From an uncultured Chloroflexia bacterium (GTDB lineage Bacteria; Chloroflexota; Limnocylindria; QHBO01), in assembly GCA_963825525.1 (NCBI GenBank), contig CAWGTN010000002.1, positions 1,504,001 through 1,568,000 of the forward strand: a stretch of 64,000 bases of DNA. The letters are read 5' to 3'. The notes under the pieces were generated by a model. That model worked only from the letters and a program-made list of their open reading frames with translations, was not told the DNA's origin and did not search any database. The translations under genes were made by a program, and so were the position numbers. This document shows positions 4,398-41,553 of the stretch, in pieces; within the stretch, counting starts at the first letter, position 1, and each line of letters begins with the position of its first letter.

Positions 4398-4534
4398 CCG
4401 ATACACCACTGGCCTTCGATGTCGGCAGGCCTGACCCATCTGCAATGATAGTGGGATGACAGGCTGCCACCGCGGCCAGCGAGAGCCGACACCTTGACTG
4501 ACGAGCGGCATCGGCACGCCCGCGACTAAATAGG

Positions 4535-9509: not shown

Positions 9510-9616
9510 CGAGCGCAGCAATCGGACCAAGATCGTCCAGCTCATGGTCCTTACTGTCCATGCGCGCAAGATCGCATGCCACACCTGCGTTGGCTGGTGC
9601 GACCTACCGATGAACC

Positions 9617-10826: not shown

Positions 10827-11006
10827 CGTGCCGTCCCTCAGTAGGAAGGCAACTCGCGATCATCGGCGCCGAAAAGTGGCAAGCCGAGGCGTGGCGCATG
10901 CGCCTACGCGAAAACTTGACAAGCGGGGCTTCCAGACGAACTTCAGCGAATGACTTTGCCTCATGTGCCGCTCTCGCAGGCGCTGACCTTGGCGCATGCC
11001 GCCAGC

Positions 11007-11357
11007 ATGGCGCCTAAGGCGACGAAGCGGCTCCGCCATGGCACGGCTCTCGCCACAGTATTGCTAGCACTTGCCATAGCCGCATGTGCGAGTATCAGTA
11101 TGCCGGGATTGACTTGCGCCGGGCCGGATGCGAGAACGTGCCAACAAGCCGCCTCGCTTGCTCTGGAGCGCGGGGTCTTTGTGCCCCACGCTGATCTCGC
11201 CGGCCCGGTTCGCGTGACGTACACATCAGCAACCGAGTGGATGGGCGCGAAGCGACCACTTCTCGATGTCTCGTTTGAAGTGAGGACGGCGTCGCGACCA
11301 ATCGTAGTGACGGTCGGCGAGATGGACGACGGCCGCCTCACAGTTTGCACGTACTAG
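11007..11357 (+). CDS. hypothetical lipoprotein (start uncertain, 10950 or 11007)
   Basis: Hydrophobic signal with lipobox IAAC; three further Cys. Confidence 0.55.
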   Translation: MAPKATKRLRHGTALATVLLALAIAACASISMPGLTCAGPDARTCQQAASLALERGVFVPHADLAGPVRVTYTSATEWMGAKRPLLDVSFEVRTASRPIVVTVGEMDDGRLTVCTY

Positions 11358-23878: not shown

Positions 23879-25516
23879 GACGCGGGACCCTCGACATGCA
23901 GGAGCCGGGTGAATCCCGGCAGGGTTGGCACCGTGGTGAGCTCCCAGCGATCGGTGACGTTCCGACGCTCCCAGTCGGGGAGAACCACGTAGACCGGCCG
24001 CTCGCCGAAATGGGAGCGGATGGCGTTGTTCATCGTACGGTATCCGTCGTCGAGGATGTCGCGCTCGTCGATGATCGTCAGGTCCGGACGCTCGCCGAGC
24101 ACCCAGCGGTGATGCCAGAGCGGCGTGCTGTAGCTCCACCAGCTGACGATCACCGCATTCACCGGCAGAAGCTCGTGCACCGATGCCACCCAGGCATCGG
24201 CGTCGCGATTGTCGCTCTGGTCATGCGCCGCGTACTCGGTGACGATCGATGCCGCCGGGAGCAGGGCGCCGAGGCCCAGAACGATGCTTCCGGCAAACCC
24301 CGCCAGCAGGCGTCGCGACCGCAGCGAGTCGGTGAGGCGCCGGGACACCTCGGCCACCGCGCGCGCGACCGCCGTCCCGACCGCGGCAAGGGCAACGCCG
24401 AGGAGCGGCGCGAGGACCGCGATCGTCGGCATGTAGTAGCGGTCGATGTCGCCATCGCGGAAGTTCATCGAGTACAGAACGTTGCCGACCACGAAGAGCA
24501 GCAGCACCGCGAAGGTCCCGAGCGAACGGGCGGCCACGACGGCCGCCCCGATGGCGACCAGGAGCCACCCGGGCGCCGCGAACTGTGCCGCCAGGACGCG
24601 CTCCGCGTCCGCCCACTTGTTGGCGAGGTCGGCCAGGGGCTCCCGGAAGTCGCGGAACAGGCCACTGAACTGCTCGGCGAACACCACGTAGCGGAACCGC
24701 TCGAACGTGTCGGGACGGCCGTAGAACAGCGGAGGCTCGGGGTCGGTGATGGCCCGCAGCCAGATGTAGGCGAACGATGCGATCCCAGCCGCCAGCACCA
24801 GCGCGCAGATCGCGATGAGTCGTCGACGCCGATGGAAGGAGGGGTCCACCAGGAACAGCCAGGCGCCGATTCCGAAGGCGAAGAGGCCGATGAGTGGATG
24901 AACTCCCAGCCCGAGACCGAAGGTCGCCGCCGCGGCGACCAGCCACCGACCCGCTTTCGGTGAGCCGGTGGCTTCCGCGCGAGCCCAGCTGAGGACGAGC
25001 CAGACCAGCGACGGTCACGGACAGGATGCTGATGGCGTGGACGTCCGCGCGGGTCGCGTTCTCCCATGGTTCCGAGGCGAAGGCGAACGCGGCCCCCGCC
25101 ACGCCGGCCGCGACGGCATGCAGTCCACGGTCCCGCTCTCGGATGAGGAGGCCGGTGCTCAGGACCACGAAGCCGGACGCCAGCGCCACAGCCACCGCCG
25201 AGAGAAGGTTCATGCGCCAGGCGACCTCCCCGATCGGCAGCTGGCTCCACAGCCAGCCGATCATGGTGTACACGGGAAACCCGGTCGGATGGAAGATGGA
25301 GAGCGTCGGAGGTACGGTCTGGGCCTCGCCGGTGTCCCAGAATCCGCCGGCTGGCAACAGGGTGCGCAGGTAGATGCCGAAGGCCAGGACGACCACCAAC
25401 GCGGCGGCGAACGCCACGAGATTGTCGGTGTGGGCGATCCACTGCCGGCCGGTTCGGCGTGCGGAGGATGCAACCGCGACCCGTTCGGGGCCGTCGGGGG
25501 CTCGATGTATACTCAC
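23875..25516 (-). CDS. DUF2723/TMEM260-like GT-C membrane glycosyltransferase; apparent +1 frameshift at ~25011; start uncertain
   Basis: WDTGEAQ..LSIFHPTGFPVY..AWRMNLLS..ATRADVH, then YIWLRA..RYY in the next frame. Confidence 0.8.
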
Positions 25517-25600
25517 CGCCACCTTGGCGTGCTTGACGAGACGGCGCACCCCCCGGGAGTGCCGCACCTGATGATTCGTGGCCCCGTCGGGCGACGGGGC

Positions 25601-28600
25601 GTGGGGATACTCGACGCGATTCGACAGCTCGACGCCCGCACGGTCCTCACCACGATCCTCGTCCTTGGCCTCGCGCTGCGCGTATTCATCGCCGGTGTCT
25701 ACCTGCCGCTCAGCGGATTCTCGATCGACATCGGTGACTTCTCCGCCTGGGGACAACGGCTAGCAAGCGTCGGGCCAGGCGCATTCTACGAGTCGGGCTA
25801 CTTCAGCGACTACCCGCCCGGGTACCTGTACGTGCTCTGGCTGCTCGGCGCCATCGGCGGCGCGCTCGCGCCGCTGGTCGGACAGGACGCCACCGGGGGT
25901 CTCGTCAAGATCCCGGCAATCCTCGCCGACATCGGCATCGGCTGGCTGCTGTTCGTCATCTGCCGCCGATGGGCGGGTGACCTGCTGGACCGGACGCGGT
26001 TTGCCATCAGCGGCGAAACGTTGGGCATCGCGGCCGCCACGATCTACGTCTTCAACCCCGGATCCATCTTCGACTCGTCCGTCTGGGGCCAGATCGACTC
26101 GGTCGGTTCGCTGGTGCTGCTGGCCACGATCTACGCGCTGGCTCGCGGCTGGACCGAGGCCGCCGCGTTCGGTGCCGTTCTCGCCATGCTGGTGAAGTTC
26201 CAGTTCGCGTTCCTGCTGCCCATCGTTGCCATCGTCGGGATCCGCCGGCACGTCCTCGGCCGGTCGACCGACCCGGCGCTCCACGGACGCCGAGACGTCC
26301 TGCGGGTCGTGACCTCACTGGCGGTCGGCGTGGGCACCCTCACCGTCCTCATGCTCCCGTTCGGAATGTCGCTCTACGCGCCGCTTGCCGGAGGCGACCC
26401 GACCGGGTTCCTCGGCATCCTGCCCGAGCCAGATCCGAGCGCGAGCCTCATCGGCAAGTTCGTGGAGGCTGCCAATACCTACACCGGCCTCTCGATCAAC
26501 GCCTTCAACATGTGGCGCAACCCATGGTCGGGTCTGGGCGACACGCTCGTCTGGGGCGACGACACCCCGGTCGGGTTCGTGGTCGGGTCGGTCGCGCTGA
26601 CCTGGCAGCAGGTCGGAACCGTCCTCTTCATCCTCGTGGCGCTGGTCGCCCTGGTCCAGGTGGCGCGACGCGACGACCTTCGCGGCATCCTCGTCGCCAG
26701 CCTTCTGCTGGCCATCGCCTTCTTCGTCCTGCCGACCCGCGTCCACGAGCGCTATCTCTTCCCGGCCCTCGTGCTTGCGGCTCCGCTGCTCCTGTCCGGC
26801 CGGCTGTGGCCGTGGATCTACGGCGGGCTGACACTCTCGTTCTTCACGAACATCTACTGGGTCTACAGCGAGGACTGGTCGTTCGCCAGTGGACTCATCA
26901 ACCCGGGGGTTAACGGCCTCCCGATGGTCCAGGATTGGCTGCTCGAGCACACCCTTCTCACCGACTGGGGCATCTGGGCGATCTCGCTGCTGAGCGTCGT
27001 CCTCCTGCTGCTCGTGATGGCCAGGTCCGTGGCGATGGTGGTTCGGCCCGCGTCCGACGCTGTGCCGGTGCCCGATGCCGCGACGTCCACGCTCCCAGCT
27101 GGCCGCTCGCCGCGCGCCGCCCAATGGGCTGTCGACGGTGAGGGCGAGCCGGCCGTCGCGGTGCGACGAGGCGGGATCTTCGGATGGCTGCGTCCCGACC
27201 CCGCCGACCCGTACCTGCTCGAGCCCCGCCGCCGGCTTGATCGGCGCGACGCCGGTCTCCTCCTGCTCCTGGTGGTCTTCGCGCTCGTATTCCGTCTGTG
27301 GCGGCTCGATGTCCCGCGCGGCGACCACTTCGACGAGGTCTACCACGCGCGTTCCGCCACCGAGTGGATCAGCAACTGGCAGAACGGCTGGCAGCGCGAT
27401 GTCTACGAGTGGACCCATCCGATGCTGGCGAAGTACCTCATCGCGGCCGGGATCACCCTGGCCGACCCGAACAAGGTGACCGATACCGACCAGCTCGACG
27501 GCCCGTCGCCATCCATCGCGGTGGCCACGGCAAGGTCCTCGCAAGGTTGGGACCGTTCGATCGTGTTCACCGCCCCGGCTGCCGGCAGCACGATCCTGGC
27601 GACCGACGCCGAAACGGGCCGGGTCGTCGTCCGCTTCGACGCGGGCGGTCCGGTGGCCGCGCTCGCGTACGACGCCGATGCACCACGCCTCCTGGTCGGC
27701 CGCGCGGACATCGGCACCGTCGAGACGTTCGAGCTGGCCGGCCTGCTCGCGTCACCGGACGGCCGCGCGCCACCCTCGGGGCCACCGATCGTCACCGAGC
27801 TCCAGGGCGTGATCCAGTTCGCGGTGCCGCGCGACGCGGACGTGATGCTGCTCCGCGGCCCGGACGGGCTCGCGGTCGTGGATCGCGCGACCGACGAGGT
27901 GCGGGTCAGCGGACCGGGGGTCTACGGAGGAATGGCCTGGATTCCCAGCTCCGACGCGGATCAGCCGAGCTTCGTGGCGGTCACCGATCCGGGTCGCGGC
28001 TCCGTTTTGTTCCTCGACAGCTCGACGCTCGCGCTGGTCTCGAACGCTGACGGTGGCGAAGCCGGGGTGGTCGAGGTCGCGTCACCGCTCGTCGGCCCGC
28101 TCATCTCGCGGGGTAGCGGCGATGACCAGCAGCTCTTTGTGCTGACCGGGGCGGTGGCCGCCAATGACGAGCATCCGGAGACGGCCGGCGGCATCGCGGC
28201 ACTCGACGCCGATGCCCAGTCGCTGAGCGACATCGTCCCGTTGCCGGGCGCTCCGGCGCTCATCGGCGAGCAGAGCGTCGCAAAGCTCGTCTACGTGGCC
28301 GGGGTCAACAACAGCGGGGAGCCGGTGGTGTGGCCGATCGAGCCGCACCTGGACGATCGAGGTGACACGAGCTCCGGCCTCGCGGCCTTCGACGAGACCG
28401 TGCTGCCGGCCCCGGCCCTGGCGATGGATTTCGACATCAGTGCCGATAACCAGGGCGACGACCACGGGGGTCTCATCCTGAGCACCGGCGACGGGCAGCT
28501 GGTCCGCCTTGACGCGGGCAGCAACGCCTTCGCCTGGCGGCTGGCGGGCGTGACGTTCGGGGCCGTCCTCGTCGGCCTCATCTACCTGCTCACCGCGACA

Positions 28601-30340
28601 CTCTTCGGCCGACGTCGGATCGCGGTCCTGGCCGCCGGCTTCATCGCCATCGACGGCATGAGCTACGTCATGAGCCGAATCGCGATGAACGACATCTTCG
28701 TGGCCGTCTTCATCGTGGCCGCGTATCTCGCTTTCTGGCAGATCTGGTCAGGCCGATGGGCGCGAAGCGCCTGGTGGGTGCTGCCGCTGGTCGGCGTCCT
28801 CATCGGCCTCGCGGCAGCCACCAAGTGGGTCGGCTTCTACGCCCTGGCCGGCATCTGGATCCTCGTACTGGCGCGGTCGAACCTCGGGCGGCTGCTGCTG
28901 GTCGGACTCGTGGCCCTCGGCACCGTGGTGGGCGGGTTCGATGCCCCGTGGCCGTTCCTCGTCACCATGCTGCTGGCGCTCGCCATTGCCCTGGCGATCG
29001 TCCACGTCAGGCCGATCCGGCTCGACCTGGCGACGGCTCGCCTGGCGCTACCGGCGACCGGGGTCGTACTGGGTGGGGTGGGGCTGGCCTTTGCCCTGGC
29101 CTACGATCAGGTCGATGGCGCCGGCACGGCCGACGGGGCGGTCGAGATCCTCTTCGCGCTCCTCGCCCGCGGCGCGCAGGTCGGCTGGCCGGCGTACCTG
29201 ATGCTCGCCGTCGCCGGGCTGCTCCTGCTGTGGCGCGCCGTGCGGTCGATCCGCGAGCCGAGCTCGGACGCGCGCTGGGCCCAGCCGGGGGAGATGGGCG
29301 GCTTCGCCTGGTCGTGGATCGGCGCGTGCCTGATCGTCATCCCGCTGACCGTGTATGCCCTGAGCTACGTCCCGTACCTGCAGCTCGGCCACGTCTTCGC
29401 CGGCGCCGATGCGGGTCCGGGTTACGGCTGGTCGCTGGAGGAGCTCCACGCCCAGATGTTCGGCTACCACTTCGGGCTGACCGCGGGCCACGCCAGCTCG
29501 TCGCCGTGGTGGAGCTGGCCGTTGGACCTGAAGCCGACCTGGTTCTTCAACGCGACGTATGACGCCGACCAGGTCGCGGTCATCTACAACGGCGGGAATC
29601 CGATCCTGTTCTGGGCCGGCATCCCTGCAGTGGCGGTCTGCGCGGTGCTGGCCTGGAAGCGCCGATCGGCCGCCCTGGTGCTCGTCGTGGCCGCCTTCGC
29701 CTTCCAACTGGCGCCGTGGACCCGGATCGAGCGCGCCACGTTCGCCTACCACTACCTCACCGCGGTGATCTTCGCGATGATCGCCATCGCCTACGTCGTG
29801 GACGAGCTCCTGCGTCGTCCAGCGTGGCGCGAGCTGGCCATCGGCTACCTGGCGCTGGTCGTCGTCGTCGGCATCCTGGTCTTCCCATTGGGCGCCGCGT
29901 TCCCGATGCCGGATTGGTACATCAACGCCGCCCGCGCGCTGCCGCCGTGGAACTACGGGTTCCAGTTCCCCGATCCGCCGAAGGGCGATCGCGGCGACCT
30001 CGTCAGCGCATCGGGCCTCAAGCTCATCGGCGGCGTCGTGGCGGCGGTGCTTGCCATGGCGTGGTCGGTGGGTGGCCGATCCTGGGTGCCGGCGATCCGG
30101 TCGCGGCTGCCCTCTCGGCGCTCGGTGCCGGACGCTCCCCGACGCAGGCTGATCGTCACATGCCGCGGGGAGGAATCCGGCGAACGTTCGGTGATCGGAG
30201 GCGCCTTACGTGGTGACCAACCGCCTGGCACTACTGGCCGCGATCTTCACCCTTGTCGGAGTTTGGATGAGTCACTCCTCACGCGTCTTCACACCTCTGC
30301 ATTCGATTCGGGGGTTGAAGAGATCGCGAGTGGTTCGTAA
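25601..30340 (+). CDS. fusion protein: GT-C mannosyltransferase-like domain plus PMT (GT39) with beta-propeller-like insertion; true stop possibly 30152
   Basis: DYPP, WGQIDS, HERY; FDEVYHARSA..EWTHPMLAK; AWRL, SRIAMND, ATKWVG; SSPWWSWPL..GNPILFW; GTG start at 25601. Confidence 0.85.
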   Translation: MGILDAIRQLDARTVLTTILVLGLALRVFIAGVYLPLSGFSIDIGDFSAWGQRLASVGPGAFYESGYFSDYPPGYLYVLWLLGAIGGALAPLVGQDATGGLVKIPAILADIGIGWLLFVICRRWAGDLLDRTRFAISGETLGIAAATIYVFNPGSIFDSSVWGQIDSVGSLVLLATIYALARGWTEAAAFGAVLAMLVKFQFAFLLPIVAIVGIRRHVLGRSTDPALHGRRDVLRVVTSLAVGVGTLTVLMLPFGMSLYAPLAGGDPTGFLGILPEPDPSASLIGKFVEAANTYTGLSINAFNMWRNPWSGLGDTLVWGDDTPVGFVVGSVALTWQQVGTVLFILVALVALVQVARRDDLRGILVASLLLAIAFFVLPTRVHERYLFPALVLAAPLLLSGRLWPWIYGGLTLSFFTNIYWVYSEDWSFASGLINPGVNGLPMVQDWLLEHTLLTDWGIWAISLLSVVLLLLVMARSVAMVVRPASDAVPVPDAATSTLPAGRSPRAAQWAVDGEGEPAVAVRRGGIFGWLRPDPADPYLLEPRRRLDRRDAGLLLLLVVFALVFRLWRLDVPRGDHFDEVYHARSATEWISNWQNGWQRDVYEWTHPMLAKYLIAAGITLADPNKVTDTDQLDGPSPSIAVATARSSQGWDRSIVFTAPAAGSTILATDAETGRVVVRFDAGGPVAALAYDADAPRLLVGRADIGTVETFELAGLLASPDGRAPPSGPPIVTELQGVIQFAVPRDADVMLLRGPDGLAVVDRATDEVRVSGPGVYGGMAWIPSSDADQPSFVAVTDPGRGSVLFLDSSTLALVSNADGGEAGVVEVASPLVGPLISRGSGDDQQLFVLTGAVAANDEHPETAGGIAALDADAQSLSDIVPLPGAPALIGEQSVAKLVYVAGVNNSGEPVVWPIEPHLDDRGDTSSGLAAFDETVLPAPALAMDFDISADNQGDDHGGLILSTGDGQLVRLDAGSNAFAWRLAGVTFGAVLVGLIYLLTATLFGRRRIAVLAAGFIAIDGMSYVMSRIAMNDIFVAVFIVAAYLAFWQIWSGRWARSAWWVLPLVGVLIGLAAATKWVGFYALAGIWILVLARSNLGRLLLVGLVALGTVVGGFDAPWPFLVTMLLALAIALAIVHVRPIRLDLATARLALPATGVVLGGVGLAFALAYDQVDGAGTADGAVEILFALLARGAQVGWPAYLMLAVAGLLLLWRAVRSIREPSSDARWAQPGEMGGFAWSWIGACLIVIPLTVYALSYVPYLQLGHVFAGADAGPGYGWSLEELHAQMFGYHFGLTAGHASSSPWWSWPLDLKPTWFFNATYDADQVAVIYNGGNPILFWAGIPAVAVCAVLAWKRRSAALVLVVAAFAFQLAPWTRIERATFAYHYLTAVIFAMIAIAYVVDELLRRPAWRELAIGYLALVVVVGILVFPLGAAFPMPDWYINAARALPPWNYGFQFPDPPKGDRGDLVSASGLKLIGGVVAAVLAMAWSVGGRSWVPAIRSRLPSRRSVPDAPRRRLIVTCRGEESGERSVIGGALRGDQPPGTTGRDLHPCRSLDESLLTRLHTSAFDSGVEEIASGS

Positions 30341-32665: not shown

Positions 32666-33466
32666 ATGTCGATGGCAACGCGCGAGCTGAAGGCGAGCTT
32701 CGCCTTCGTCGAGCGCAACTTCAACCTGACGAAGCGTTACTGGGGCTGGGAGGTGGCGTGGCTCGTCTATTCCCTGGCGGCCGCCCTGGCGGTGGCCTTC
32801 ATCGGCGTTGCCCAAAACGACACCGAGCTGCTCCAGGTGCTCGTGATCGGCACGATCTTCTGGAACTTCCTCTCGATCGTCTTCGGCTTCATCGGCGAGA
32901 CGGTGACCTGGGAGCGCTGGGAGGGGACCCTGGAATACACCTTCATGGCACCCGTGCGCCGGTACACCCAGCTCATCGGGTCCACGGTCTTTGCGGTGAG
33001 CTACGCGCTCATCCAGATGGTCGTGATCCTCATCGTGATGATGCTGTTCTTCGGGCTGGAGTTCACCGGCGGCAACTTCGTGACCGCCGCGGTGTTCCTT
33101 GGCATCGGCTCACTGAGCTTCGTGGGAGTCGGCATGATGGCGGCCATCCTGCCGCTGCTCTACGTGGAGCGTGGCGACCAGATGGTGTTCCTCATCCAGT
33201 CGGTGATCCTGCTGTTCAGCGGGGTCTACTACTCGACCGACATCCTTCCCGACTGGATGCAGTTCGTCAGCCAGTTCTCGCCGGGCACCTACGTGCTCGA
33301 CGGGATCCGTGAGGGGCTCATCAAGGGCACGCCGGTAACGGAGCTGCTCCACGACGTGTGGCCGCTGCTGATCATGGCCGTGGTCCTCATCCCCCTGGGC
33401 GTCTACGTCTTCGGGATCGCGGAGCGCTACGCGAAGCGCACGGGCAAGCTGAAGAGAGTCGGATGA
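32666..33466 (+). CDS. ABC-2 type permease
   Basis: Six TM; ERWEGTLEYTFMAP, FSGVYY..LPDWMQ. Confidence 0.9.
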   Translation: MSMATRELKASFAFVERNFNLTKRYWGWEVAWLVYSLAAALAVAFIGVAQNDTELLQVLVIGTIFWNFLSIVFGFIGETVTWERWEGTLEYTFMAPVRRYTQLIGSTVFAVSYALIQMVVILIVMMLFFGLEFTGGNFVTAAVFLGIGSLSFVGVGMMAAILPLLYVERGDQMVFLIQSVILLFSGVYYSTDILPDWMQFVSQFSPGTYVLDGIREGLIKGTPVTELLHDVWPLLIMAVVLIPLGVYVFGIAERYAKRTGKLKRVG

Positions 33467-34488
33467 TGGAGATTGACATGAAGACCGATACGGCCGCTCA
33501 CGCGGCGGACATTCCCGGCCTTGTGGTGCGACCGTACGCCGGCGAGGCCGATCTGCCCGAGGTGGCGCGCGTCCAGAGCGCGGAGTGGGCCGCCGATGGC
33601 GTGAGCGAGCGCGCGAGCGTGGACCAGCTGCGGGCGTGGTGGGGCAATCCGTCGGAGCAGTTCGACCCGGCGCGCGATGTCGACATCATCGAGATCCACG
33701 GCCGGGTCGTGGCGGTCACCCAGCGCGACTGGACCGATACCACCGATGGCGTCCGCGAGTACCGGGGCCGGGGCTGGATCGAGCCGGAGCACCGCCGCCG
33801 CGGAATCGGGACCATGCTGGTCGCCCGCAACGAGGCGGTTCGCCGCAGCCTGGCAGCGACCCACGACACCCGCCGACCGCTCGTGCTCGGCATGGGAGGC
33901 CCCGAATCCAACGTCGGGGCCCAGACCCTTGCCCGCGCGTTCGGCTACGAGCCGGAGCGCTGGTTCACCGACATGGAGCGTCCTCTGACCGGTGACCTGC
34001 CGGATGTGCCTCCGATACCCGATGGCCTCGAGGTGCGCCCGGCATCGGCGGACCAGTCGCGCCAGATCTGGGAGGCGGATCACGATGCCTTCCGCGACCA
34101 CTGGGGTGGCTGGGATCCGTCGGATGCGAGCTATCGGCGCTGGGTGGAGTCGCCGGAGTTCCAGCCCGACCTCATGCTCGTGGCGTGGGACGGTGACGAG
34201 ATCGCGGGCGCCGTGCTCAATGCGGTCTATGCCGACGAGAACGAGGAGCTGGGAATCAGTCGCGGCTGGCTCGACAGCGTCTTCACGCGACGACGGTGGC
34301 GGCGGCGCGGGCTGGCTCGCGCGCTCATCGTGCGCTCGCTCCACCTGCTGCGCGACGGTGGCCTGGCAGCGGCGGCTCTCGGCGTCGACGGCGACAATCC
34401 GTCGGGCGCTTTCGGCCTGTACGAATCGGTTGGGTTCCAGCCGACCAAGAGGTTTGTTGCCTGGCGCAAGCCGATGGAGGGTGCGTGA
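33466..34488 (+). CDS. double-domain GNAT acetyltransferase
   Basis: PEHRRRGIG and WRRRGLARAL acetyl-CoA motifs; LGVDGDNPSGAFGLYESVGF. Confidence 0.88.
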   Translation: MEIDMKTDTAAHAADIPGLVVRPYAGEADLPEVARVQSAEWAADGVSERASVDQLRAWWGNPSEQFDPARDVDIIEIHGRVVAVTQRDWTDTTDGVREYRGRGWIEPEHRRRGIGTMLVARNEAVRRSLAATHDTRRPLVLGMGGPESNVGAQTLARAFGYEPERWFTDMERPLTGDLPDVPPIPDGLEVRPASADQSRQIWEADHDAFRDHWGGWDPSDASYRRWVESPEFQPDLMLVAWDGDEIAGAVLNAVYADENEELGISRGWLDSVFTRRRWRRRGLARALIVRSLHLLRDGGLAAAALGVDGDNPSGAFGLYESVGFQPTKRFVAWRKPMEGA

Positions 34489-35483
34489 TGGATAACGAGC
34501 TGGGGATCGTGGGCCCAGACATCGCCGGGCTGGCGTTCCGTCGCTTCCGCGGGGAGGACGATCTGCCCGGGATGCTGGCGCTCCTCAATAAGGCGCATGC
34601 AGCGGACGGGGTCGACGAGGTCCTGACCCTTGACCAGCTGCGGCTGAATTACGCCACGCTCGTGAATTGCGATCCCGAGCGCGACATGTGCCTGGCGGAG
34701 GTCGATGGTGAGGTCGTGGCCTACGGCCGCGTCTTCTGGCAGGACCTCGTGGACGGCGGGCGGACGTACGAGAATTTCGGGCTGGTTCGCCCGGATTGGC
34801 GGCGCCGCGGGATCGGCGGGGCCCTCCACCGGCAGAACGAAGCCCGCCTCCGTGAGATCGCGGCCGATCACGACATCTCGCCGAAATGGCTTTCGTCCGA
34901 GGGGGTGGACGACGATGCGGGGAACGCCGCACTGCTGCTGGGCGACGGCTACCAGCCGGTCAGGTACTTCTACGACATGGTGGCGGCATCCCTGGATGGG
35001 CTGCAGCCGGTGCCGATGCCTGACGGGATCGAGCTTCGCCCGGTGTCGCGCGACCAGTATCGGGCCATCTGGGAGGCGTCGGCGGAGGCGTTCCGTGACC
35101 ATTGGGGCGAGGCCGAGTGGGCCGAGGCCGATTGGGAGCGGTTTCAGTCCGAGCCGGAGAACGCCGACCCGCGGCTGTGGCGCGTCGGCTGGGCCGGGGA
35201 TGAGGTGGCTGGCGCCGTCACGGTCACCGTGCCGGAGGAGGAGAACAGGCTGCACGAGCGCGCCCGGGTCTACGTGGCGTGGGTCTCGGTCCGTCGCGCG
35301 TGGCGCCGGCGCGGGCTGGCGCGTGCGCTCATGGCGAGCGGGCTGCTTGCTGCCCGCGACGAGGGATTCACCTCGGCGAGCCTTGGCGTCGACACCGACA
35401 GCCCGACCGGGGCCACGTCCCTCTACGAATCTCTGGGGTTCGCGCCGGAGAAGTCGTTCACCGCGTATCGCAAGGCCATGTAG
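34488..35483 (+). CDS. double-domain GNAT acetyltransferase (tandem paralogue)
   Basis: PDWRRRGIG and WRRRGLARAL; AFRDHWG shared with the upstream paralogue. Confidence 0.88.
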   Translation: MDNELGIVGPDIAGLAFRRFRGEDDLPGMLALLNKAHAADGVDEVLTLDQLRLNYATLVNCDPERDMCLAEVDGEVVAYGRVFWQDLVDGGRTYENFGLVRPDWRRRGIGGALHRQNEARLREIAADHDISPKWLSSEGVDDDAGNAALLLGDGYQPVRYFYDMVAASLDGLQPVPMPDGIELRPVSRDQYRAIWEASAEAFRDHWGEAEWAEADWERFQSEPENADPRLWRVGWAGDEVAGAVTVTVPEEENRLHERARVYVAWVSVRRAWRRRGLARALMASGLLAARDEGFTSASLGVDTDSPTGATSLYESLGFAPEKSFTAYRKAM

Positions 35484-35803: not shown

Positions 35804-36952
35804 CTAGCCTCGCTCCGACAGCACCCGATCCCGGGTCTCGTAGTAGAAGTCGACGATCCGCTCCGTCACGCGATCCCAGCTGAACTCGGGGGCGCGGGCG
35901 CGGCCGGCCTCGCCCATCTCGTGCCGCAGCTCTGGATCTCGCGCCAGCGCGTACAGGCCGGCAGCCAGAGCCCGCGGATTCCTCGGCTCCACGAGCAACC
36001 CCTGGACGTTGCGCTCCACCACCCGTTTGAATCCGTGGATGTCGGAGGCGACGATCGGCACACCGGCGGCCATGGCTTCGAGCAGCACGATCCCGAACGA
36101 CTCCTGTCCGGTGTTCGGGGCGCAATAGATGTCGGCCGATGCGAAGTAGCGGACCTTGGCCTCGTCGTCCACGCGACCCAGGAACTCGACGTCGCGGATC
36201 CCGCGCAGCCCCACGTAGCGCTTGTACTCGCGCAGCTTCGGCCCCGCTCCCACCACCAGCAGCCGAGCGTCGACCTTGCGCTTGCGGAGCCGATGGTATG
36301 CCTTCAACAGGTGGGTGAGACCCTTGCGCTCCTCGAGGCGGCCGACGAACAGGATGTTCAACGTCCCGTCGCGCAGCTCCTCGAACGGCTCGGCCTGCGT
36401 GAAGCGGTCGAGGTCCACGCCGTTGGGAATGATCCGATATTCGCCGGGGAAGTACGTGCTGATGAAGTGGCGCGCGGCCCCGCTGACCGCGATCCGTCCA
36501 TGGAGCAGGTTGGCCAGGCCACCGGCGAAGCGCCCACCCACCCAATAGGACGGTGAGAAGCCGCCGAAGGCGTGGAACGTCGCGATGTTGACCGTCTCGG
36601 ACTGGTCGAGCACGGTCGGCGAGAGGAAGGGCACGAACGGCTCGTGGAAGTGGAGGATGTCGAACCGTTGCGCCTCGAGCACCTCGCGCGCCTGGCGCTT
36701 GAACCGCAGGCCCAGGGTCACGCGCCCGACACTGCCGTTGGCCGGCGCCGCCCACCCGGTGCCCAGGCGGATGATGTGCCCCTCGCTCTCTCGCTGTCGC
36801 CCGTACTTGCTGGTGATGATCCACACGTCGTGGCCCAGGCGTCGCATGGCCTCGTACGTGAAGCGCACGTGCTCGTTCACCCCGCCGGGGTGCGGATACC
36901 CGTACGGGCTGACGATGCCGATCTTCAACGGCGGTCGAGCCGGCGACGTCAT
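35804..36952 (-). CDS. pimA: phosphatidyl-myo-inositol alpha-mannosyltransferase (GT4)
   Basis: KIGIVSPY..PGGVNEH, NGSV, HFHEP..P, ATFH, APNTGQESFGIVLLEAMAAG; operon context. Confidence 0.85.
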   Translation of the reverse strand: MTSPARPPLKIGIVSPYGYPHPGGVNEHVRFTYEAMRRLGHDVWIITSKYGRQRESEGHIIRLGTGWAAPANGSVGRVTLGLRFKRQAREVLEAQRFDILHFHEPFVPFLSPTVLDQSETVNIATFHAFGGFSPSYWVGGRFAGGLANLLHGRIAVSGAARHFISTYFPGEYRIIPNGVDLDRFTQAEPFEELRDGTLNILFVGRLEERKGLTHLLKAYHRLRKRKVDARLLVVGAGPKLREYKRYVGLRGIRDVEFLGRVDDEAKVRYFASADIYCAPNTGQESFGIVLLEAMAAGVPIVASDIHGFKRVVERNVQGLLVEPRNPRALAAGLYALARDPELRHEMGEAGRARAPEFSWDRVTERIVDFYYETRDRVLSERG

Positions 36953-37692
36953 CGCCATTCCCCTGTGGGCCGCAGGGTATGCCGCAGGTGCCTTGCCTTG
37001 GCTCCCAGCTGGCGCCGATACACGTCGAGATTGTGCCGGTTCGACCAGAACGCGCCATCGGGCCGGGTGGTGCGCGCCTCGATGGCCGCCCGATAATCGG
37101 CCCCGCTGCTCCCCGGGAACCATGTCCACCCCGAGCCGATGCCCTCGAGAACGTGCGCATCGGAGTTCCCGACGGCCGCCAGCTCGAGGACGGTTTCGTT
37201 CAATCGGTCGCGTGCGGATCGTCTCGACCGTCCGGCGGCTGACGGGTTCATCAGCTCGATGCCATCCAGCCGATGCCGCGCGTCGCTGGCCTGCTGCGCC
37301 GCGCGCAGCGATCGGGACCCGAGAGACGGGGTGAGGGGCGCCAGCGGGTGGGCGGCGACCGCGATCCCGCCCTGGTCATGGATTCGCTCCAGGGTCTCGG
37401 GTAGTGGTCGCAGCGCCGGGATCCGATCCGTGATGAAGAGGGCCAGGACGTGGCCGCGACGGGTCGTGATCTCCTCGCCGACCACCAGCTCGAACGAATA
37501 GTTGCCCTGGGCATGGAGATCGCGCGCCCGCAGCGCGCCATCGATGCGCTCGTGGTCGGTGATGGCCACGAGGTCGAGATCGGTTCGCGCCTCGACGTGG
37601 TCGAGCACAGCCTGGACCCCGGCAGTCCCATCCGAGTACAGCGTGTGGAGGTGCATGTCGGCCTTGCCATGATCGCCGCCGGATCGTGTCAT
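36949..37692 (-). CDS. PHP-domain metallophosphoesterase
   Basis: DMHLHTLYSDG, AITDH, GEEIT, AHP, GNSDAH. Confidence 0.9.
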   Translation of the reverse strand: MTRSGGDHGKADMHLHTLYSDGTAGVQAVLDHVEARTDLDLVAITDHERIDGALRARDLHAQGNYSFELVVGEEITTRRGHVLALFITDRIPALRPLPETLERIHDQGGIAVAAHPLAPLTPSLGSRSLRAAQQASDARHRLDGIELMNPSAAGRSRRSARDRLNETVLELAAVGNSDAHVLEGIGSGWTWFPGSSGADYRAAIEARTTRPDGAFWSNRHNLDVYRRQLGAKARHLRHTLRPTGEWR

Positions 37693-38573
37693 GCGTCGGC
37701 CCGCCGGAGATCGGGCCAGAACGGCTGGAACGCGCCCCACCACTGCTCCGGCGCCTCACCGATGTCGTGCTCGTATCGGGCGGCCATGAGCTTCGTCAGG
37801 GCGGCCACATCGGCCCGTCGGTCGCCGGTGGAAGGCAACGCGATCACCTCGCCATCGGCGACGAACCGTTCAGGACCCGTACGCAGGCAGCGACCGACGA
37901 TCAGGGCCGCGTGGTGGGCGATGGCCAGGACCGCCGGGCCGATCGGCACCGTGGTCGGATGCCCGAACATCGTCACCGGGAGCCCGTCACCGGCCAGGTC
38001 GCGGTCGCCGATGATCCCGACCGTGCCGCCGGCACGCAGCCGGGCGCTCAATGCGCGGCGCGCACCGCTCAGCGGCACGAGCTCGATCCTCGCCCCACCC
38101 CGCCGCGCCGCGAGAAACTCGAACAGGACGCGCGGCTCGATCTCCTCGATCGGGGCAAGGGGCCGGTGCCCGTGGGCCGCTATGAACACGCCGAACGGCT
38201 CGAAATTGCCGAGATGGGAGCTCACCAGCATCCCCGGGCCGTCGCGCAGCGCCGCCCCGAAGACCGCCCAATCCGGCACCGCGACGATCTCGTCGATGCG
38301 GTCGAGGGGATAGTGCGGCGCCCGCAGCAGCTCGAGGTAGTAGCGCGCGTGATTGCGGAACGCGGCACGCACCAGATCTCGGAATGGCCTGCCTCGCGTC
38401 GGTCGACCGGTCGCGGCACACACCCGCGCAAGATTGGCGGCCACCATCCGTCGACGGTCGGGCGCCATCCGGTACCACGCCGCGCCGAGCAGGTCAGCCA
38501 GGCGGTATGCCACGGAGGACGGCAACCAGGCAACGATGCGGTCCGCGATGCCGAGGCCGAGACGAAGCATCAC
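37689..38573 (-). CDS. PIM acyltransferase PatA-like (HtrB/LpxL family), copy 2
   Basis: HLGNFE, IIGDRDL, PEQWWGAFQPFW. Confidence 0.85.
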   Translation of the reverse strand: MMLRLGLGIADRIVAWLPSSVAYRLADLLGAAWYRMAPDRRRMVAANLARVCAATGRPTRGRPFRDLVRAAFRNHARYYLELLRAPHYPLDRIDEIVAVPDWAVFGAALRDGPGMLVSSHLGNFEPFGVFIAAHGHRPLAPIEEIEPRVLFEFLAARRGGARIELVPLSGARRALSARLRAGGTVGIIGDRDLAGDGLPVTMFGHPTTVPIGPAVLAIAHHAALIVGRCLRTGPERFVADGEVIALPSTGDRRADVAALTKLMAARYEHDIGEAPEQWWGAFQPFWPDLRRADA

Positions 38574-39589
38574 GCGGCGATCTTCGTCCAGTCCTCGCCG
38601 CGCCGGGCTGCCTCGAGTGCAGCTCGGGCTTCGGCTCGCTCGGCGTCGGTCTCCGGCCACACCGGGCGGAACATGTACCACTGCCCGGGATCCTCGGCGA
38701 TGACCCCGCCCAGCGCGTCGGCCAGCGCCTGGGTCGCGCGGTAGATCTCCGCCGGCTCGGTGCTCGCGCAGTGGATGAAGGGCAGGCCGCGGGCATCGAA
38801 CCGGTCGTCGCGGTCCCTCCGGCACCAGACCGGAAGCAGCGGGGCGCCGGTCTTGGCGGCCAGCGTCGCGGGCCCGATGGGGAACGTCGTCGCCTCCCCG
38901 CACAGCTCGACCGGCACGTCGCCGCGCCGGTAGCCGCCGTCGCAGAACAGGACGAGGTTGCCGTTCTCGCGCAGGACCTTGAACAGGCCGCGCAGGTTAC
39001 GCCACCCGATGACGAAGATGTTCTGGCTGGCCCGCGCCGCGGCGAGATGGTCGTAGAGCCGGCCGTACGTCGTGTCGTCGGCAACGACGTGCAGCGCCTC
39101 GCCGCTCAGCTTGAGCCCGGGTCCCAGCAGATCCATGCCGCCGATGTGGATCGTGCAGCACAGCACCCCGCGACCCTCCTTGCGCGCCTCGCCGAGGACC
39201 TCGACGTTCTCGATCCGCACGAGGTCCGCCGCGTCGTCACTCGTCAGCTCACCGAGACGCATCATGTCCACCAGGTACTTGGCGTAGTTGCGGAACGCGC
39301 GACGTGCGGCGGCCTTCACGCGCCGGTCATCGGGATCCAGGCGCATCGGCCTGGCCAGGTTCTCGTGGATCAGCTGCTGCTTGGGGCCCGAGAGGTCGTA
39401 GGCGACATTGCCGACCGCCGACGCGCCGAGCATCGCCAGCCGGCGCGGGAGGGCGTTGATGATCCGCTCTCCCGCCAGGTAGAGCCAGTACGTCAGGCGC
39501 TCACGCTTGCGCTCCGCGCTGCTGCCCTCCGGTGATCGGCTGCGGCCGATGCGACCGGCGAAGCCGGTCACGGCCCGTGCGAGATTCAT
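38570..39589 (-). CDS. PIM acyltransferase PatA-like, copy 1
   Basis: AFRNYAKY, HIGGMD, LFCDG, PGQWYMFRPVW. Confidence 0.85.
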   Translation of the reverse strand: MNLARAVTGFAGRIGRSRSPEGSSAERKRERLTYWLYLAGERIINALPRRLAMLGASAVGNVAYDLSGPKQQLIHENLARPMRLDPDDRRVKAAARRAFRNYAKYLVDMMRLGELTSDDAADLVRIENVEVLGEARKEGRGVLCCTIHIGGMDLLGPGLKLSGEALHVVADDTTYGRLYDHLAAARASQNIFVIGWRNLRGLFKVLRENGNLVLFCDGGYRRGDVPVELCGEATTFPIGPATLAAKTGAPLLPVWCRRDRDDRFDARGLPFIHCASTEPAEIYRATQALADALGGVIAEDPGQWYMFRPVWPETDAERAEARAALEAARRGEDWTKIAA

Positions 39590-39644
39590 GCTCGGAGGAG
39601 TATCGACGGACGGGATGACGGCCGCTCGTCGATCGGTCCCCTCC

Positions 39645-40871
39645 CTAGACCACCTCGGCTGCTGCTGCCTTCGCCTTGCCGCGCGTATTGGCCGCCGCAA
39701 GCTTCTTCGTTCGCCGCGGCGCGACCTTCTCGGTCCCGACCAGAGTCTCGTTGTCGTCGCCGCGGATGAAATCCTCGACGCGGTTGTGGGCGATGTCGTC
39801 GTGGATCTGCATCGGCGGCGACTTCATGAAATAGCTCGACGGGGCAACGAGCGTGCCGGCCAGGCCACGATCGAGCCCGAGCTTCGCGCAGCGGATGGCA
39901 TCGGTGATGACGCCGGCGCTGTTCGGGCTGTCCCAGACCTCGAGCTTGAGCTCCAGGTTCAATGGGACGTCGCCATAGGTCGTGCCCTCCATCCGGATGT
40001 GGCACCACTTGCGGTCCTTGAGCCACGGGACGTAGTCGGACGGACCGACGTGGATATCGGTGTCCGCGATCTCGTAGTCCATCATGCTCGTGACCGCGTT
40101 CGTCTTGCTGATCTTCTTCGACTCGAGGCGCTCTCGCTCGAGCATGTTCAGGAAGTCGGTGTTGCCGCCGAAGTTGAGCTGGTAGGTGCGGTCGATCTTC
40201 ACGCCGCGGTCCATGAACAGCCGTGTCAGCACGCGGTGCGTGATCGTTGCGCCGACCTGGCTCTTGATGTCGTCGCCGATGATCGGCAGGCCCGCCTCGG
40301 CAAAGCGCCGCTGCCAGTACGGCTCGCGGCCGATGAAGACCGGGATGGCGTTCACGAATGCGACGCCCGCCTGGATCGCCTGCTCGGCGTACCACTTCGT
40401 GGCCTGCTCGCTGCCGACCGGCAGGTAGCTGACCATCACATCGACCTCGCGGTCCTTGAGGATGCCGATGACGTCGGCCGTGGGCCCGGGCGCCGGCTCG
40501 ATGATCTCGGAGAGGTACTTGCCCAACCCATCGTGCGTCATGCCGCGCTCTACCGGCACGTTCAGCTGGGGAACTTCGCTGAACGTGAAGGTGTTGTTCG
40601 GCTCGACGAAGATCGCTTCGGAGAGGTCCTTGCCGACCTTGTTCTTGTCGACATCGAACGCCGCCACGAACTCGATGTCGCGGACGTGATACCCGCCCAG
40701 GTTGACGTGCATCAACCCGGGGATGAAGTCCCCGTCCTTCGCGTCGGCGTAGTGGTAGCGGCCCTGGACCAGGCTGCTGGCGCAGTTCCCGACGCCCACG
40801 ATGGCGACGCGGACCTTGCCGTCACTGGCTCGGTGTCCGTTGCTGGCGGCCTTGCCGTTTGGAGATGCCAC
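39645..40871 (-). CDS. ino1: myo-inositol-1-phosphate synthase
   Basis: [51 protein letters not shown]. Confidence 0.96.
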
Positions 40872-40878
40872 GATGCGA

Positions 40879-41553
40879 TCAGTGCTCCCTGCTGCGAAGT
40901 GTTGCGGCCTGGCTGGCGCGCCAGACATGCCAGATGCGTTGGATGACGGTCACCACCGTGAGGGTGGCGACCAGGACGAGGATGCCGATGAGGATGGGCG
41001 TGAACCCGAGTCCGGCAAGTCCGATGCCGGCGATGACGAGGACCAGGCGCTCGGTGCGAGGCGCCAGGCCGACCGTGGCCGTGACCCCGATGCCTTCGGC
41101 GCGGGCTCGCGCATAGCTGACGAGGAACGATCCGGTCAGGGCCACGATGACCGCCACCACCGGCAGGACCGGATCCTCCAGCGTGGTCAGAAACCAGGTG
41201 GCGATGCCGGCGTAGAGGACCGCTTCACCGGCGCGATCCAGCGTGGAGTCCAGGAAGCTGCCGAACGCCGTTCCGCCGCCCTGCGCGCGGGCCAGTGCGC
41301 CGTCCACGGCATCGAGCAGCGACCCGCCGGTGAGCACGGCCGCCCCGACGAGGAGCCAGCCGCCTGCCACGAGCGCGGACGCGGCAACCGTGATCAGCAG
41401 GCCGATGACCGTGATGGTGTTCGGCGTCAGGTGCAGTGCGATGGCGAGCCGGACGATCGGCGCCAGGATGCCTCGGGCAGCGTCCTTGAACCGCGCGGGC
41501 ATGACCGAAGCGCCGCGCCGCAGGTCGTGTGCGTGGTCGCGGCTACTGGACAT
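40879..41553 (-). CDS. pgsA: phosphatidylinositol-phosphate synthase (CDP-alcohol phosphatidyltransferase)
   Basis: [40 protein letters not shown]. Confidence 0.9.

What the first reader, a model, noticed from the sequence alone, without database searches (positions are those of the whole stretch)
36949..37692. PHP phosphoesterase as a candidate for the missing phosphatidylinositol-phosphate phosphatase
Established: bacterial PgsA1-type synthases use inositol-1-phosphate and give PI-phosphate, which must be dephosphorylated before PimA acts; to my knowledge that phosphatase is not firmly assigned. Seen: a stand-alone PHP protein with all metal ligands overlaps both neighbours (patA and pimA) by 4 nt and is the only phosphoesterase in the operon. 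Inference: it performs this step.
Basis: partly seen in the sequence, partly recalled or inferred. Interest (0 to 1): 0.75.

Follow-up and report, generated by a model that had tools for sequence, protein, structure and literature searches.

The report
Candidate PI-phosphate phosphatase in Chloroflexota
A small metal-dependent phosphoesterase gene sits inside the phosphatidylinositol lipid operon of this soil bacterium and of most of its phylum, which makes it a strong, testable candidate for the enzyme step that has long been missing from bacterial phosphatidylinositol synthesis.

Summary
Window 36949-37692 (-) encodes a 247-aa stand-alone PHP-fold protein with the metal-ligand motifs. It shares ATGA overlaps with a PatA-like acyltransferase upstream and a PimA-like mannosyltransferase downstream. 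The six-gene minus-strand operon is pgsA(PIPS)-ino1-patA-patA-PHP-pimA, and the PHP is its only phosphoesterase.

The organism is a Candidatus Limnocylindria bacterium (Chloroflexota).
- Of 141 related PHP loci examined, 116 lie next to pimA, 5 next to pgsA only and 2 next to other PI genes at a contig end; 18 are unlinked.
- Adjacency survives at least five gene orders.
- Three Ktedonobacteria genomes with no PimA orthologue found keep a PHP-pgsA pair.

The neighbouring synthase keeps the inositol-phosphate pocket residues of M. tuberculosis PgsA1, so a PIP intermediate is expected. No PgpA homologue was found in the genome.

Papers up to 2026 still call the PIP phosphatase unidentified outside Bacteroides. 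Searches for a PHP-PIP connection in print found none.

Limits:
- No activity data exist.
- Some Chloroflexota PI operons lack this PHP.
- Unlinked homologues exist.
- IMPase and PAP2 genes elsewhere in the genome remain alternatives.

I put the PIP-phosphatase reading at about 0.55.

The parts
40879..41502 (-). pgsA: phosphatidylinositol-phosphate synthase (PIPS). The start is uncertain; the open frame runs up to 41772.
   Evidence: NF045883 PIPSynth gives 164.1 bits against a cut-off of 170, and PF01066 also matches. The best PDB hits are Renibacterium PIPS 5d92 (E 6.3e-31) and M. tuberculosis PgsA1 6h53 (E 2.1e-30). The residues aligned to MtPgsA1 R94, S132, Y133, R137, R152, R155 and R195 are identical, and K135 is Arg.
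39645..40928 (-). ino1: myo-inositol-1-phosphate (inositol-3-phosphate) synthase
   Evidence: TIGR03450 gives 544.8 bits (below its cut-off of 638), and PF01658 gives 129.4 bits.
38570..39700 (-). patA-like acyltransferase, copy a (start uncertain)
   Evidence: PF03279 gives 114 bits. NF005919 'PIM acyltransferase' gives 146.8 bits against a cut-off of 209.
37689..38570 (-). patA-like acyltransferase, copy b. The likely start is at 38570; the open frame runs to 38903.
   Evidence: PF03279 gives 90 bits. NF005919 gives 151.5 bits against a cut-off of 209. Its stop overlaps the PHP start in ATGA.
36949..37692 (-). Stand-alone PHP-fold metal-dependent phosphoesterase, 247 aa. It is the candidate PIP phosphatase. 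It ends in a cationic helix at about residues 218-240.
   Evidence: It has no transmembrane-like segment: the highest Kyte-Doolittle 19-mer average is 0.85. The tail carries net positive charge in all 21 orthologues checked.
35804..36952 (-). pimA-like GT4 mannosyltransferase
   Evidence: PF00534 and PF13439 match. The best PDB hit is M. smegmatis PimA 2gej, E 9.2e-57 over residues 7-372. Its start overlaps the PHP stop in ATGA.

Best explanation
The 247-aa PHP protein is a cytoplasmic enzyme with a PHP-type multi-metal site. It probably attaches peripherally to the membrane and removes the phosphate left on the inositol ring of phosphatidylinositol phosphate (PIP). PIP is the product of the operon's PIPS (CDP-DAG plus inositol phosphate from Ino1). 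The phosphatase product is phosphatidylinositol, which the downstream PimA-like enzyme mannosylates and the two PatA-like enzymes acylate.

Shown here:
- the PHP fold and its conserved ligand motifs;
- the operon structure;
- conserved linkage of this PHP clade to pgsA/pimA across Chloroflexota;
- conservation of the inositol-phosphate pocket in the synthase.

Inferred:
- the substrate (PIP);
- that the chemistry is phosphomonoesterase rather than diesterase;
- membrane-surface association through the cationic C-terminal helix.
For: 1. Pathway logic. The operon encodes every step from glucose-6-phosphate to acylated PIM except the PIP-to-PI dephosphorylation, and the PHP is its only phosphoesterase.

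2. Linkage within the class. In 20 of 20 loci from 20 genomes (5 families, 13 genera) the order is ino1-patA-patA-PHP-pimA. pgsA lies upstream in 19 of 20; the twentieth is cut by a contig end.

3. Linkage outside the class. I chose 40 loci from the matches listed. Of these, 28 are pimA-adjacent (20 anonymous families), 1 lies beside ino1 at a contig start and 11 are unlinked. Of the 80 best GTDB-species loci, 68 are pimA-adjacent, 5 are pgsA-adjacent only, 1 follows patA-patA at a contig end and 6 are unlinked.

4. Adjacency survives rearrangement. Five gene orders were seen: pgsA-ino1-patA-patA-PHP-pimA; ino1-patA-patA-PHP-pimA-pgsA; ino1-PHP-pimA-pgsA; PHP-pimA-pgsA; and PHP-pgsA.

5. PHP goes with pgsA where PimA is not found. 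In Ktedonobacter racemifer and two other Ktedonobacteraceae, PHP lies directly beside pgsA. No PimA orthologue was found in them: the best hits are 135.8-141.7 bits with partial coverage, against 528.8 bits in a relative that has PHP-pimA-pgsA. Ino1 is present in all four genomes. A cultured member of that class has PI as a major polar lipid (PMC12453558, passages).

6. The synthase should make PIP. It keeps the residues that bind the phosphate of inositol phosphate in MtPgsA1.

7. No PgpA in this genome. No PgpA-family gene, which is the Bacteroides solution, was found in a genome that is 91.8% complete.

8. Location fits. The PHP has no transmembrane segment. Its basic C-terminal helix carries net +1 to +7 in its most amphipathic 18-mer in 21 of 21 orthologues. 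The PIPS alcohol pocket faces the cytoplasm (PMC6506517).

9. Not a TrpH-type nucleotide enzyme by architecture. The PHP lacks the roughly 78-residue stretch of RNase AM-type enzymes that has no counterpart in the profile alignment (chain residues about 91-168).
Against: - There is no biochemical or genetic test. The whole case is guilt by association, and related genomes are not independent.
- The PHP is dispensable for PI operons in some Chloroflexota. I picked five genomes that had no match at E<=1e-25. All 5 have PIPS, and 4 of 5 have pimA next to pgsA without this PHP, including two ino1-pimA-pgsA operons.
- Eighteen of 141 homologous loci are unlinked, and several of these sit at the base of the tree. 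Family f54 genomes carry a homologue (for example 227.5 bits) but have no PIPS match at E<=1e-10.
- Two Ktedonobacteria genomes keep an intact PHP beside a frameshifted pgsA remnant.
- The first His of the HxH motif is Gln in 12 of 95 linked orthologues.
- The genome also holds two IMPase-family and two PAP2-family genes elsewhere that could do the step.
- The nearest characterised PHP relatives act on nucleotides or RNA, not on lipids.
Confidence: 0.55

Rival explanations
1. The PHP is a soluble inositol-monophosphate phosphatase. It would convert the Ino1 product to free inositol, either for a PI synthase that uses inositol or for other uses, and would not act on the lipid.
For: The operon context (ino1 beside a CDP-alcohol transferase) fits this equally well. 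PHP enzymes such as histidinol-phosphate phosphatase act on small soluble phosphomonoesters (family knowledge, recalled). Arrangements with ino1 directly before PHP exist (L084, L173, L180).
Against: The synthase conserves the residues that bind the phosphate of inositol phosphate in MtPgsA1, and it scores best against the PIPS model. An IMPase in the same operon would therefore drain the synthase's substrate. The genome already has two IMPase-family genes. In Ktedonobacteria the PHP stays with pgsA while ino1 lies elsewhere.
Confidence: 0.1
2. The PHP works in the PI/PIM pathway, but at a different step. It could be a phosphodiesterase or pyrophosphatase acting on PI, PIM or CDP-DAG for turnover or regulation. 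It could also be a largely structural partner of PimA or PIPS.
For: The conserved linkage shows pathway membership, not the step. PHP domains include diesterases and exonucleases. PI operons without the PHP exist, as expected for an accessory function. The H14Q substitution in 12 of 95 orthologues could point to a relaxed catalytic requirement.
Against: Eight of the nine ligand positions are invariant in 95 orthologues, which argues for catalysis. The dephosphorylation is the one step that has no enzyme in the operon. The PHP-pgsA pairs in genomes without a detectable PimA argue against a PimA-specific role.
Confidence: 0.15
3. The PHP is a nucleotide or RNA phosphoesterase of the TrpH kind (3',5'-bisphosphonucleotide phosphatase or RNase AM). 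It would be co-transcribed with the lipid genes without a direct role in PI synthesis.
For: The best sequence matches among characterised proteins are V. cholerae and E. coli RNase AM and Cv1693. Some sources name the orthologues 'TrpH'. From recall, actinobacterial PIM operons also carry nucleotide-hydrolase-type genes (HIT, Nudix). The Nudix/LemA gene at the end of that operon is described in bioRxiv 10.64898/2026.07.15.738315.
Against: Scores against the equivalog models are far below their cut-offs (37 of 375 and 32 of 400). The stretch of RNase AM between the two aligned blocks is absent. The genome has a second PHP/PHP_C paralogue elsewhere. Tight adjacency kept through five gene orders is hard to explain without a role in the pathway.
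Confidence: 0.1

Closest known systems
BT_1525 of Bacteroides thetaiotaomicron (PIPPh, PgpA family)
   Same: It has the same proposed reaction, PIP to PI, directly after a PIPS-type synthase, and it is encoded in the inositol-lipid gene cluster. Its deletion mutant accumulates PIP-DAG (PMC9246714, passages).
   Different: The fold and family are unrelated (PgpA, PF04608). No PgpA homologue was found in this genome. BT_1525 has genetic evidence; the PHP has none.
EphE (alpha/beta-hydrolase), proposed mycobacterial PIP phosphatase candidate
   Same: It is a candidate for the same missing step, inferred from its association with PimA and from the loss of PIMs in a mutant (bioRxiv 10.64898/2026.07.15.738315, passages).
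   Different: It has a different fold and is not encoded in the pgsA/patA/pimA operon. The authors state that direct biochemical evidence is also lacking for it.
TrpH/YciV group: RNase AM (7ug9, 9etk) and Cv1693 3',5'-nucleotide bisphosphate phosphatase (2yb1)
   Same: They share the PHP fold and the DxHxH...DG, DH, E, HP and SDxH motifs. The N-terminal 85 residues or so align at E 1.2e-20 to 3.4e-13, and Foldseek probability is 1.00.
   Different: The window protein is about 45 residues shorter and has no counterpart of chain residues about 91-168. Equivalog scores are 37 of 375 and 32 of 400. Their substrates are nucleotides and RNA.
TM0559 of Thermotoga maritima (2anu) and BVU_3505 (3e38), uncharacterised compact PHP phosphoesterases
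   Same: These are the closest overall architecture (2anu: TM 0.63-0.67 by query length and 0.69-0.73 by target length), and TM0559 is of similar size.
   Different: Sequence identity is 20-23%, their function is unknown, and no link to inositol lipids was examined.
PHP-type histidinol-phosphate phosphatase (HisK/HisJ)
   Same: It is a stand-alone PHP domain that works as a biosynthetic phosphomonoesterase, removing a phosphate left on an alcohol intermediate (family knowledge, recalled).
   Different: It is only a weak structural match here (2yxo, Foldseek E 0.093). Its substrate is soluble and it belongs to a different pathway.

Membership tests
PHP superfamily (polymerase and histidinol phosphatase fold) | PHP barrel fold | tested here: met
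   The AF2 model has pLDDT 94.6 and pTM 0.91. The 36 Foldseek matches at E<=0.001 that are listed are all PHP domains: TM0559, BVU_3505, RNase AM, PsfC, Cv1693, EndoQ and the Pol III/PolC/PolX PHP domains.
PHP superfamily (polymerase and histidinol phosphatase fold) | Conserved metal-ligand motifs (HxH, D, H, E, H, H, DxH) | tested here: met
   The window protein has H14, H16, D21, H47, E74, H81, H115, D178 and H180. In 95 linked orthologues all are invariant except H14, which is Gln in 12. The motifs align with those of RNase AM. Assigning these positions as the metal ligands is from recall of the family.
PHP superfamily (polymerase and histidinol phosphatase fold) | Match to Pfam PF02811 (PHP) above threshold | tested here: not met
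   Only PF13263 (PHP_C) is reported at E<=0.001. PF02811 is precomputed for some close orthologues. Fold and motifs nevertheless place the protein in the superfamily.
RNase AM / 3',5'-nucleoside bisphosphate phosphatase (NF047791, NF041577) | Score above the equivalog cut-off and full-length match | tested here: not met
   The scores are 37 bits (cut-off 375) and 32 bits (cut-off 400), covering only residues 27-107. The middle stretch of RNase AM has no counterpart.
CehA/McbA family metallohydrolase (NF038032, domain model) | Score above the cut-off of 80 bits | tested here: not met
   The score is 68.7 bits over residues 27-199; the whole-genome search gives 67.7 bits.
PgpA-type PIP phosphatase (BT_1525 kind) | PgpA domain (PF04608) | tested here: not met
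   The PHP protein has no PgpA match, and the genome has none either (the controls ring in E. coli, B. subtilis and B. thetaiotaomicron). If the PHP does this step, it is by non-orthologous replacement.
PIP phosphatase (functional class) | Hydrolysis of the inositol-ring phosphate of PIP; PIP accumulates when the gene is absent | not testable with these tools
   This needs enzyme assays or reconstitution. Only genomic context is available.
PIPS (neighbouring pgsA; needed for the PIP intermediate to exist) | CDP-alcohol phosphotransferase with the inositol-phosphate phosphate-binding residues (MtPgsA1 S132, R155, R195; also R94, K135, R137, R152) | tested here: met
   The alignment to 6h53 shows identical residues at R94, S132, Y133, R137, R152, R155 and R195, with K135 as Arg. 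The residue roles are taken from PMC6506517 (passages). NF045883 gives 164.1 bits, just under its cut-off of 170.
PimA (neighbouring GT4) | Full-length similarity to characterised PimA rather than to other GT4 enzymes | tested here: met
   M. smegmatis PimA 2gej matches at E 9.2e-57 over residues 7-372. The next family, PimB' 3okc, matches at E 7.6e-22 over the C-terminal half only. The acceptor and donor were not tested.

The most novel reading that the evidence does not exclude
This PHP clade is the PIP (phosphatidylinositol-3-phosphate-type) phosphatase of the PIPS pathway in Chloroflexota. That would make it another, unrelated answer to the step, beside the PgpA-like BT_1525 of Bacteroides and the still unproven alpha/beta-hydrolase candidate of mycobacteria. 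PI operons of the same phylum that lack it carry other hydrolase genes by the synthase: an MBL-fold gene overlapping the pgsA stop and an alpha/beta-hydrolase gene after pgsA. This suggests the step has been filled repeatedly by non-orthologous replacement.
Probability: 0.5. Interest if true: 0.75.

Novelty: new variant of a known kind. Interest (0 to 1): 0.66.

Why it matters
Bacteria and archaea with PIPS/AIPS-type synthases make PI through a phosphorylated intermediate. Papers from 2019 to 2026 call the enzyme that removes the phosphate 'yet-unidentified', 'unidentified' or 'long-sought'. Only Bacteroides has a genetically supported enzyme.

A soluble 247-aa protein with a confident structural model gives a candidate that can be tested directly. 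Suitable tests are reconstitution in E. coli and in-vitro assays. It sits in a phylum where PI is a major membrane lipid. It would also add a lipid-headgroup substrate to the PHP superfamily.

It does not solve the mycobacterial case. No orthologue was seen outside Chloroflexota-type contigs among the 80 best loci.

Tried and rejected
- Complex prediction. PimA (alignment A3) with PHP (alignment A2) gave 'no answer', with scores 0.00 and 0.00. This is neither for nor against binding.

- Fused forms. The 'longer' protein search gave 13 hits at E<=1e-10, including PHP+GT4, PatA+PHP and Ino1+PatA+PHP. All 13 are single-member clusters. Two of the three I read (P0121, P0131) contain out-of-frame-looking stretches at the junction; P0125 looks like a read-through. 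I take them as frameshift or read-through gene calls, not as Rosetta-stone fusions.

- Phyletic co-occurrence across 401 Chloroflexota genomes. The PHP profile hits 338 genomes at E<=1e-25 and PIPS hits 387 at E<=1e-10. This could not be turned into a clean table. The PHP threshold also passes paralogues (G000 itself has 2 matches), and linked and unlinked homologues overlap in score (about 226-243 bits). PIPS is also nearly universal in the phylum, so co-occurrence carries little information there.

- Expression. One metatranscriptome run held 0.05 of the words. When laid, its contigs are about 100-nt pieces at 90-95% identity, piled on ino1. They most likely come from relatives, so this is no evidence of transcription of this operon.

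- Earlier findings. The earlier-findings look-up by place returned nothing.

- Genomes with 'no PIPS' but a PHP. G174 and G421 turned out to have frameshifted pgsA remnants directly after the PHP. They are decayed linked loci, not independent counter-examples. The f54 genomes remain genuine exceptions.

- Contigs labelled as other phyla. Four contigs are labelled Actinomycetes, Udaeobacter, Verrucomicrobiia and Roseobacter (L118, L155, L159, L188). Three of them sit inside Chloroflexota clades in the tree, and L188 is a long basal branch. I treat them as probable mis-binning and not as evidence for other phyla.

- Supplementary files of the cited papers were not seen.
Full report
**What is at the coordinates**

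The minus strand of the window carries six consecutive genes:
- a CDP-alcohol phosphatidyltransferase (about 40879-41502; open frame to 41772);
- an inositol-phosphate synthase (39645-40928);
- two Lip_A_acyltrans genes (38570-39700, and 37689 to about 38570);
- the PHP gene (36949-37692);
- a GT4 glycosyltransferase (35804-36952).

The minus-strand sequence shows ATGA at 37692-37689 and at 36952-36949.

Family searches gave the following.
- PHP protein: only PHP_C (PF13263, 34.5 bits), plus sub-threshold NCBIfam matches. These are CehA/McbA 68.7 of 80, RNase RNM 37 of 375 and nucleoside bisphosphate phosphatase 32 of 400.
- Synthase: PIPSynth, 164.1 of 170 bits.
- Ino1: TIGR03450, 544.8 bits.
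- Both acyltransferases: the 'phosphatidylinositol mannoside acyltransferase' model, 151.5 and 146.8 of 209 bits.

The GT4 is closest to M. smegmatis PimA (2gej, E 9.2e-57, nearly full length). The synthase is closest to Renibacterium PIPS and M. tuberculosis PgsA1. The flanking genes lie on the other strand: an ABC ATPase and an MFS transporter upstream, and two GNAT genes downstream. The operon has six genes and one phosphoesterase.

**Organism**

Near-identical proteins are named Candidatus Limnocylindria or Chloroflexota by their sources. The window lies in a 2.58-Mb, 4-contig genome that is 91.8% complete.

**The protein**

An AlphaFold2 model built on 95 orthologues has mean pLDDT 94.6. 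Foldseek finds only PHP domains. The nearest are the uncharacterised TM0559 (2anu) and BVU_3505 (3e38). RNase AM (7ug9, 9etk), PsfC, BAD_1165, Cv1693 (2yb1), EndoQ and polymerase PHP domains follow.

A profile of the 95 orthologues against PDB sequences aligns in two blocks with RNase AM. About 78 residues of RNase AM (chain residues about 91-168) have no counterpart. The protein is thus a compact PHP without that middle stretch.

In the 95 linked orthologues, D12, H16, D21, H47, E74, H81, H115, S177, D178 and H180 are invariant. H14, the first His of HxH, is Gln in 12. Reading these as the metal ligands is from my recall of the family.

The protein has no transmembrane-like segment: the highest Kyte-Doolittle 19-mer average is 0.85, against 2.73 in the synthase. 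A C-terminal helix (218-240 in the model) is cationic in all 21 full-length orthologues checked. In 17 of 21 it ranks among the three most amphipathic 18-mers of the protein. I take this only as weak support for binding to an anionic membrane surface.

Within the class, I took 20 loci from 20 genomes (5 families, 13 genera). All 20 show ino1-patA-patA-PHP-pimA. pgsA lies upstream in 19; the twentieth contig ends there.

A profile search of 401 Chloroflexota genomes found strong matches far outside the class. I then chose 40 out-of-class loci from the listed matches; this was my selection, not a random sample. Of these, 28 are pimA-adjacent (20 anonymous families), 1 lies beside ino1 at a contig start and 11 are unlinked.

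Among the 80 best loci from one genome per GTDB species, 68 are pimA-adjacent and 5 are pgsA-adjacent only. One follows patA-patA at a contig end, and 6 are unlinked.

The totals over 142 loci are 116, 5, 2 and 19. These include the genome's own distant paralogue as an unlinked row, and at least two places were fetched twice.

Gene order differs between lineages:
- pgsA-ino1-patA-patA-PHP-pimA;
- ino1-patA-patA-PHP-pimA-pgsA;
- ino1-PHP-pimA-pgsA;
- PHP-pimA-pgsA;
- PHP-pgsA.

In all the linked forms where the downstream gene is on the contig, the PHP sits immediately upstream of pimA or pgsA.

**The Ktedonobacteria case is the most informative**

Ktedonobacter racemifer DSM 44963 and two other Ktedonobacteraceae have a PHP-pgsA pair. 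A search with the PimA alignment finds in them only GT4 paralogues (135.8-141.7 bits, partial coverage). A fourth genome with PHP-pimA-pgsA gives 528.8 bits. All four have Ino1 elsewhere. A cultured member of the class has PI as a major polar lipid (PMC12453558, passages). The PHP therefore follows the synthase, not the mannosyltransferase.

**Is a phosphorylated intermediate expected?**

PMC6506517 (passages) names the residues around the sulfate that marks the phosphate site of inositol phosphate in MtPgsA1. These are S132, R155 and R195, plus the main chain of R152, with R94, K135 and R137 nearby. In the alignment of the window's synthase to 6h53 these positions are identical, except that K135 is Arg. 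This favours a PIPS that yields PIP, and it weighs against the rival in which the PHP merely makes free inositol.

**Other candidates in the genome**

No PgpA-family match was found. Two IMPase-family and two PAP2-family genes lie elsewhere on the chromosome and are not linked to the operon. They cannot be excluded.

**Evidence against, stated fully**

1. I picked five genomes without a PHP match at E<=1e-25. All five have PIPS. Four have pimA beside pgsA with no PHP, including two clean ino1-pimA-pgsA operons.

2. Unlinked homologues exist. Some are basal in a quick LG+G4 tree rooted on a single paralogue, and others are nested among linked ones.

3. Three f54 genomes have a homologue (for example 227.5 bits) but no PIPS match at E<=1e-10. 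There the neighbours are a SIS-domain gene and an M42 peptidase.

4. G174 and G421 keep an intact PHP beside frameshifted pgsA remnants.

5. H14 is Gln in 12 of 95 linked orthologues.

6. All characterised relatives act on nucleotides or RNA.

7. Related genomes are not independent, so the locus counts overstate the number of independent observations. The rearrangements and the PimA-less Ktedonobacteria are the more independent evidence.

**Literature**

- Heaver et al. 2022 (PMC9246714, passages) identified BT_1525, a PgpA-family protein, as the Bacteroides PIP phosphatase by PIP-DAG accumulation in the mutant. They noted that the bacterial enzyme had not been identified before.
- PMC6506517 (2019) calls the mycobacterial enzyme 'yet-unidentified'.
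- PMC9385802 (2022; passages) writes of 'an unidentified phosphatidyl inositol phosphatase'.
- bioRxiv 10.64898/2026.07.15.738315 (July 2026; passages) calls it 'as-yet unidentified' and 'long-sought'. It proposes the alpha/beta-hydrolase EphE without biochemical proof.
- Searches combining PHP terms with PIPS, PIP or Chloroflexi terms found no paper that links a PHP protein to this step (one search listed none either). The library lacks most subscription journals, and supplements were closed.

**Verdict**

I put about 0.85 on a role in PI/PIM synthesis and about 0.55 on the specific PIP-phosphatase role. The enzyme would be a non-orthologous replacement for a known step. It is restricted, as far as seen here, to Chloroflexota. 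It is directly testable.

Tallies include genomes flagged unpublished (G006, G078, G180, G206, G258, G303, G372). No locus-level claim rests on them.

Noticed in passing
L198 (G204) 6855-7745 (-), next to pgsA at 7742-8323: In a PI operon without the PHP (pimA-pgsA), a metallo-beta-lactamase-fold gene (PF00753, 64.2 bits) overlaps the pgsA stop by 4 nt. It may be another hydrolase in the same functional slot.
   Followed up: partly
L197 (G088) 9178-10071 (+), after pgsA: An Abhydrolase_3 alpha/beta-hydrolase gene (186 bits) follows pimA-pgsA in another genome without the PHP. This recalls the alpha/beta-hydrolase candidate proposed for mycobacteria, but it belongs to a different subfamily.
   Followed up: no
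L194 (G118) 3789-4469 (-): A different, distant PHP-domain gene (PF02811, 32 bits) has only local similarity to the window's PHP (E 0.002). It lies about 1 kb upstream of an ino1-pimA-pgsA operon, on the opposite strand and separated from it by a Usp gene.
   Followed up: partly
L098 (G174) 10476-11044; L192 (G421) 10072-10533: Frameshifted remnants of pgsA lie directly after an intact PHP gene in two Ktedonobacteria-type genomes that have no PIPS match genome-wide.
   Followed up: partly
window 37689-39700 (-): Two tandem PatA-like acyltransferases lie side by side; mycobacteria have one (from recall). The pair is kept in most linked loci across the phylum. Both score below the NF005919 cut-off.
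   Followed up: no
alignments A1 and A2, position 14 of the PHP: Families f2 and f5 of the class have Q instead of the first His of HxH (DLQLHS). Their PHPs group with out-of-class sequences in the tree, not with the rest of Limnocylindria. This could reflect operon transfer or a long-branch effect.
   Followed up: no
window 33358-35483 (+): Two tandem two-domain GNAT acetyltransferase genes lie convergent to the end of the PI operon. They sit next to an Ino1 that matches the 'mycothiol_INO1' model. Whether they relate to an inositol-containing thiol was not examined.
   Followed up: no
window 24968-30340 (+): An open frame of 1790 aa is listed. It was not examined.
   Followed up: no
G000:C2:1457843-1458454 (outside the window; L191): The genome's second PHP/PHP_C gene has 26% identity to the operon's PHP. 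Its context and function were not examined.
   Followed up: no
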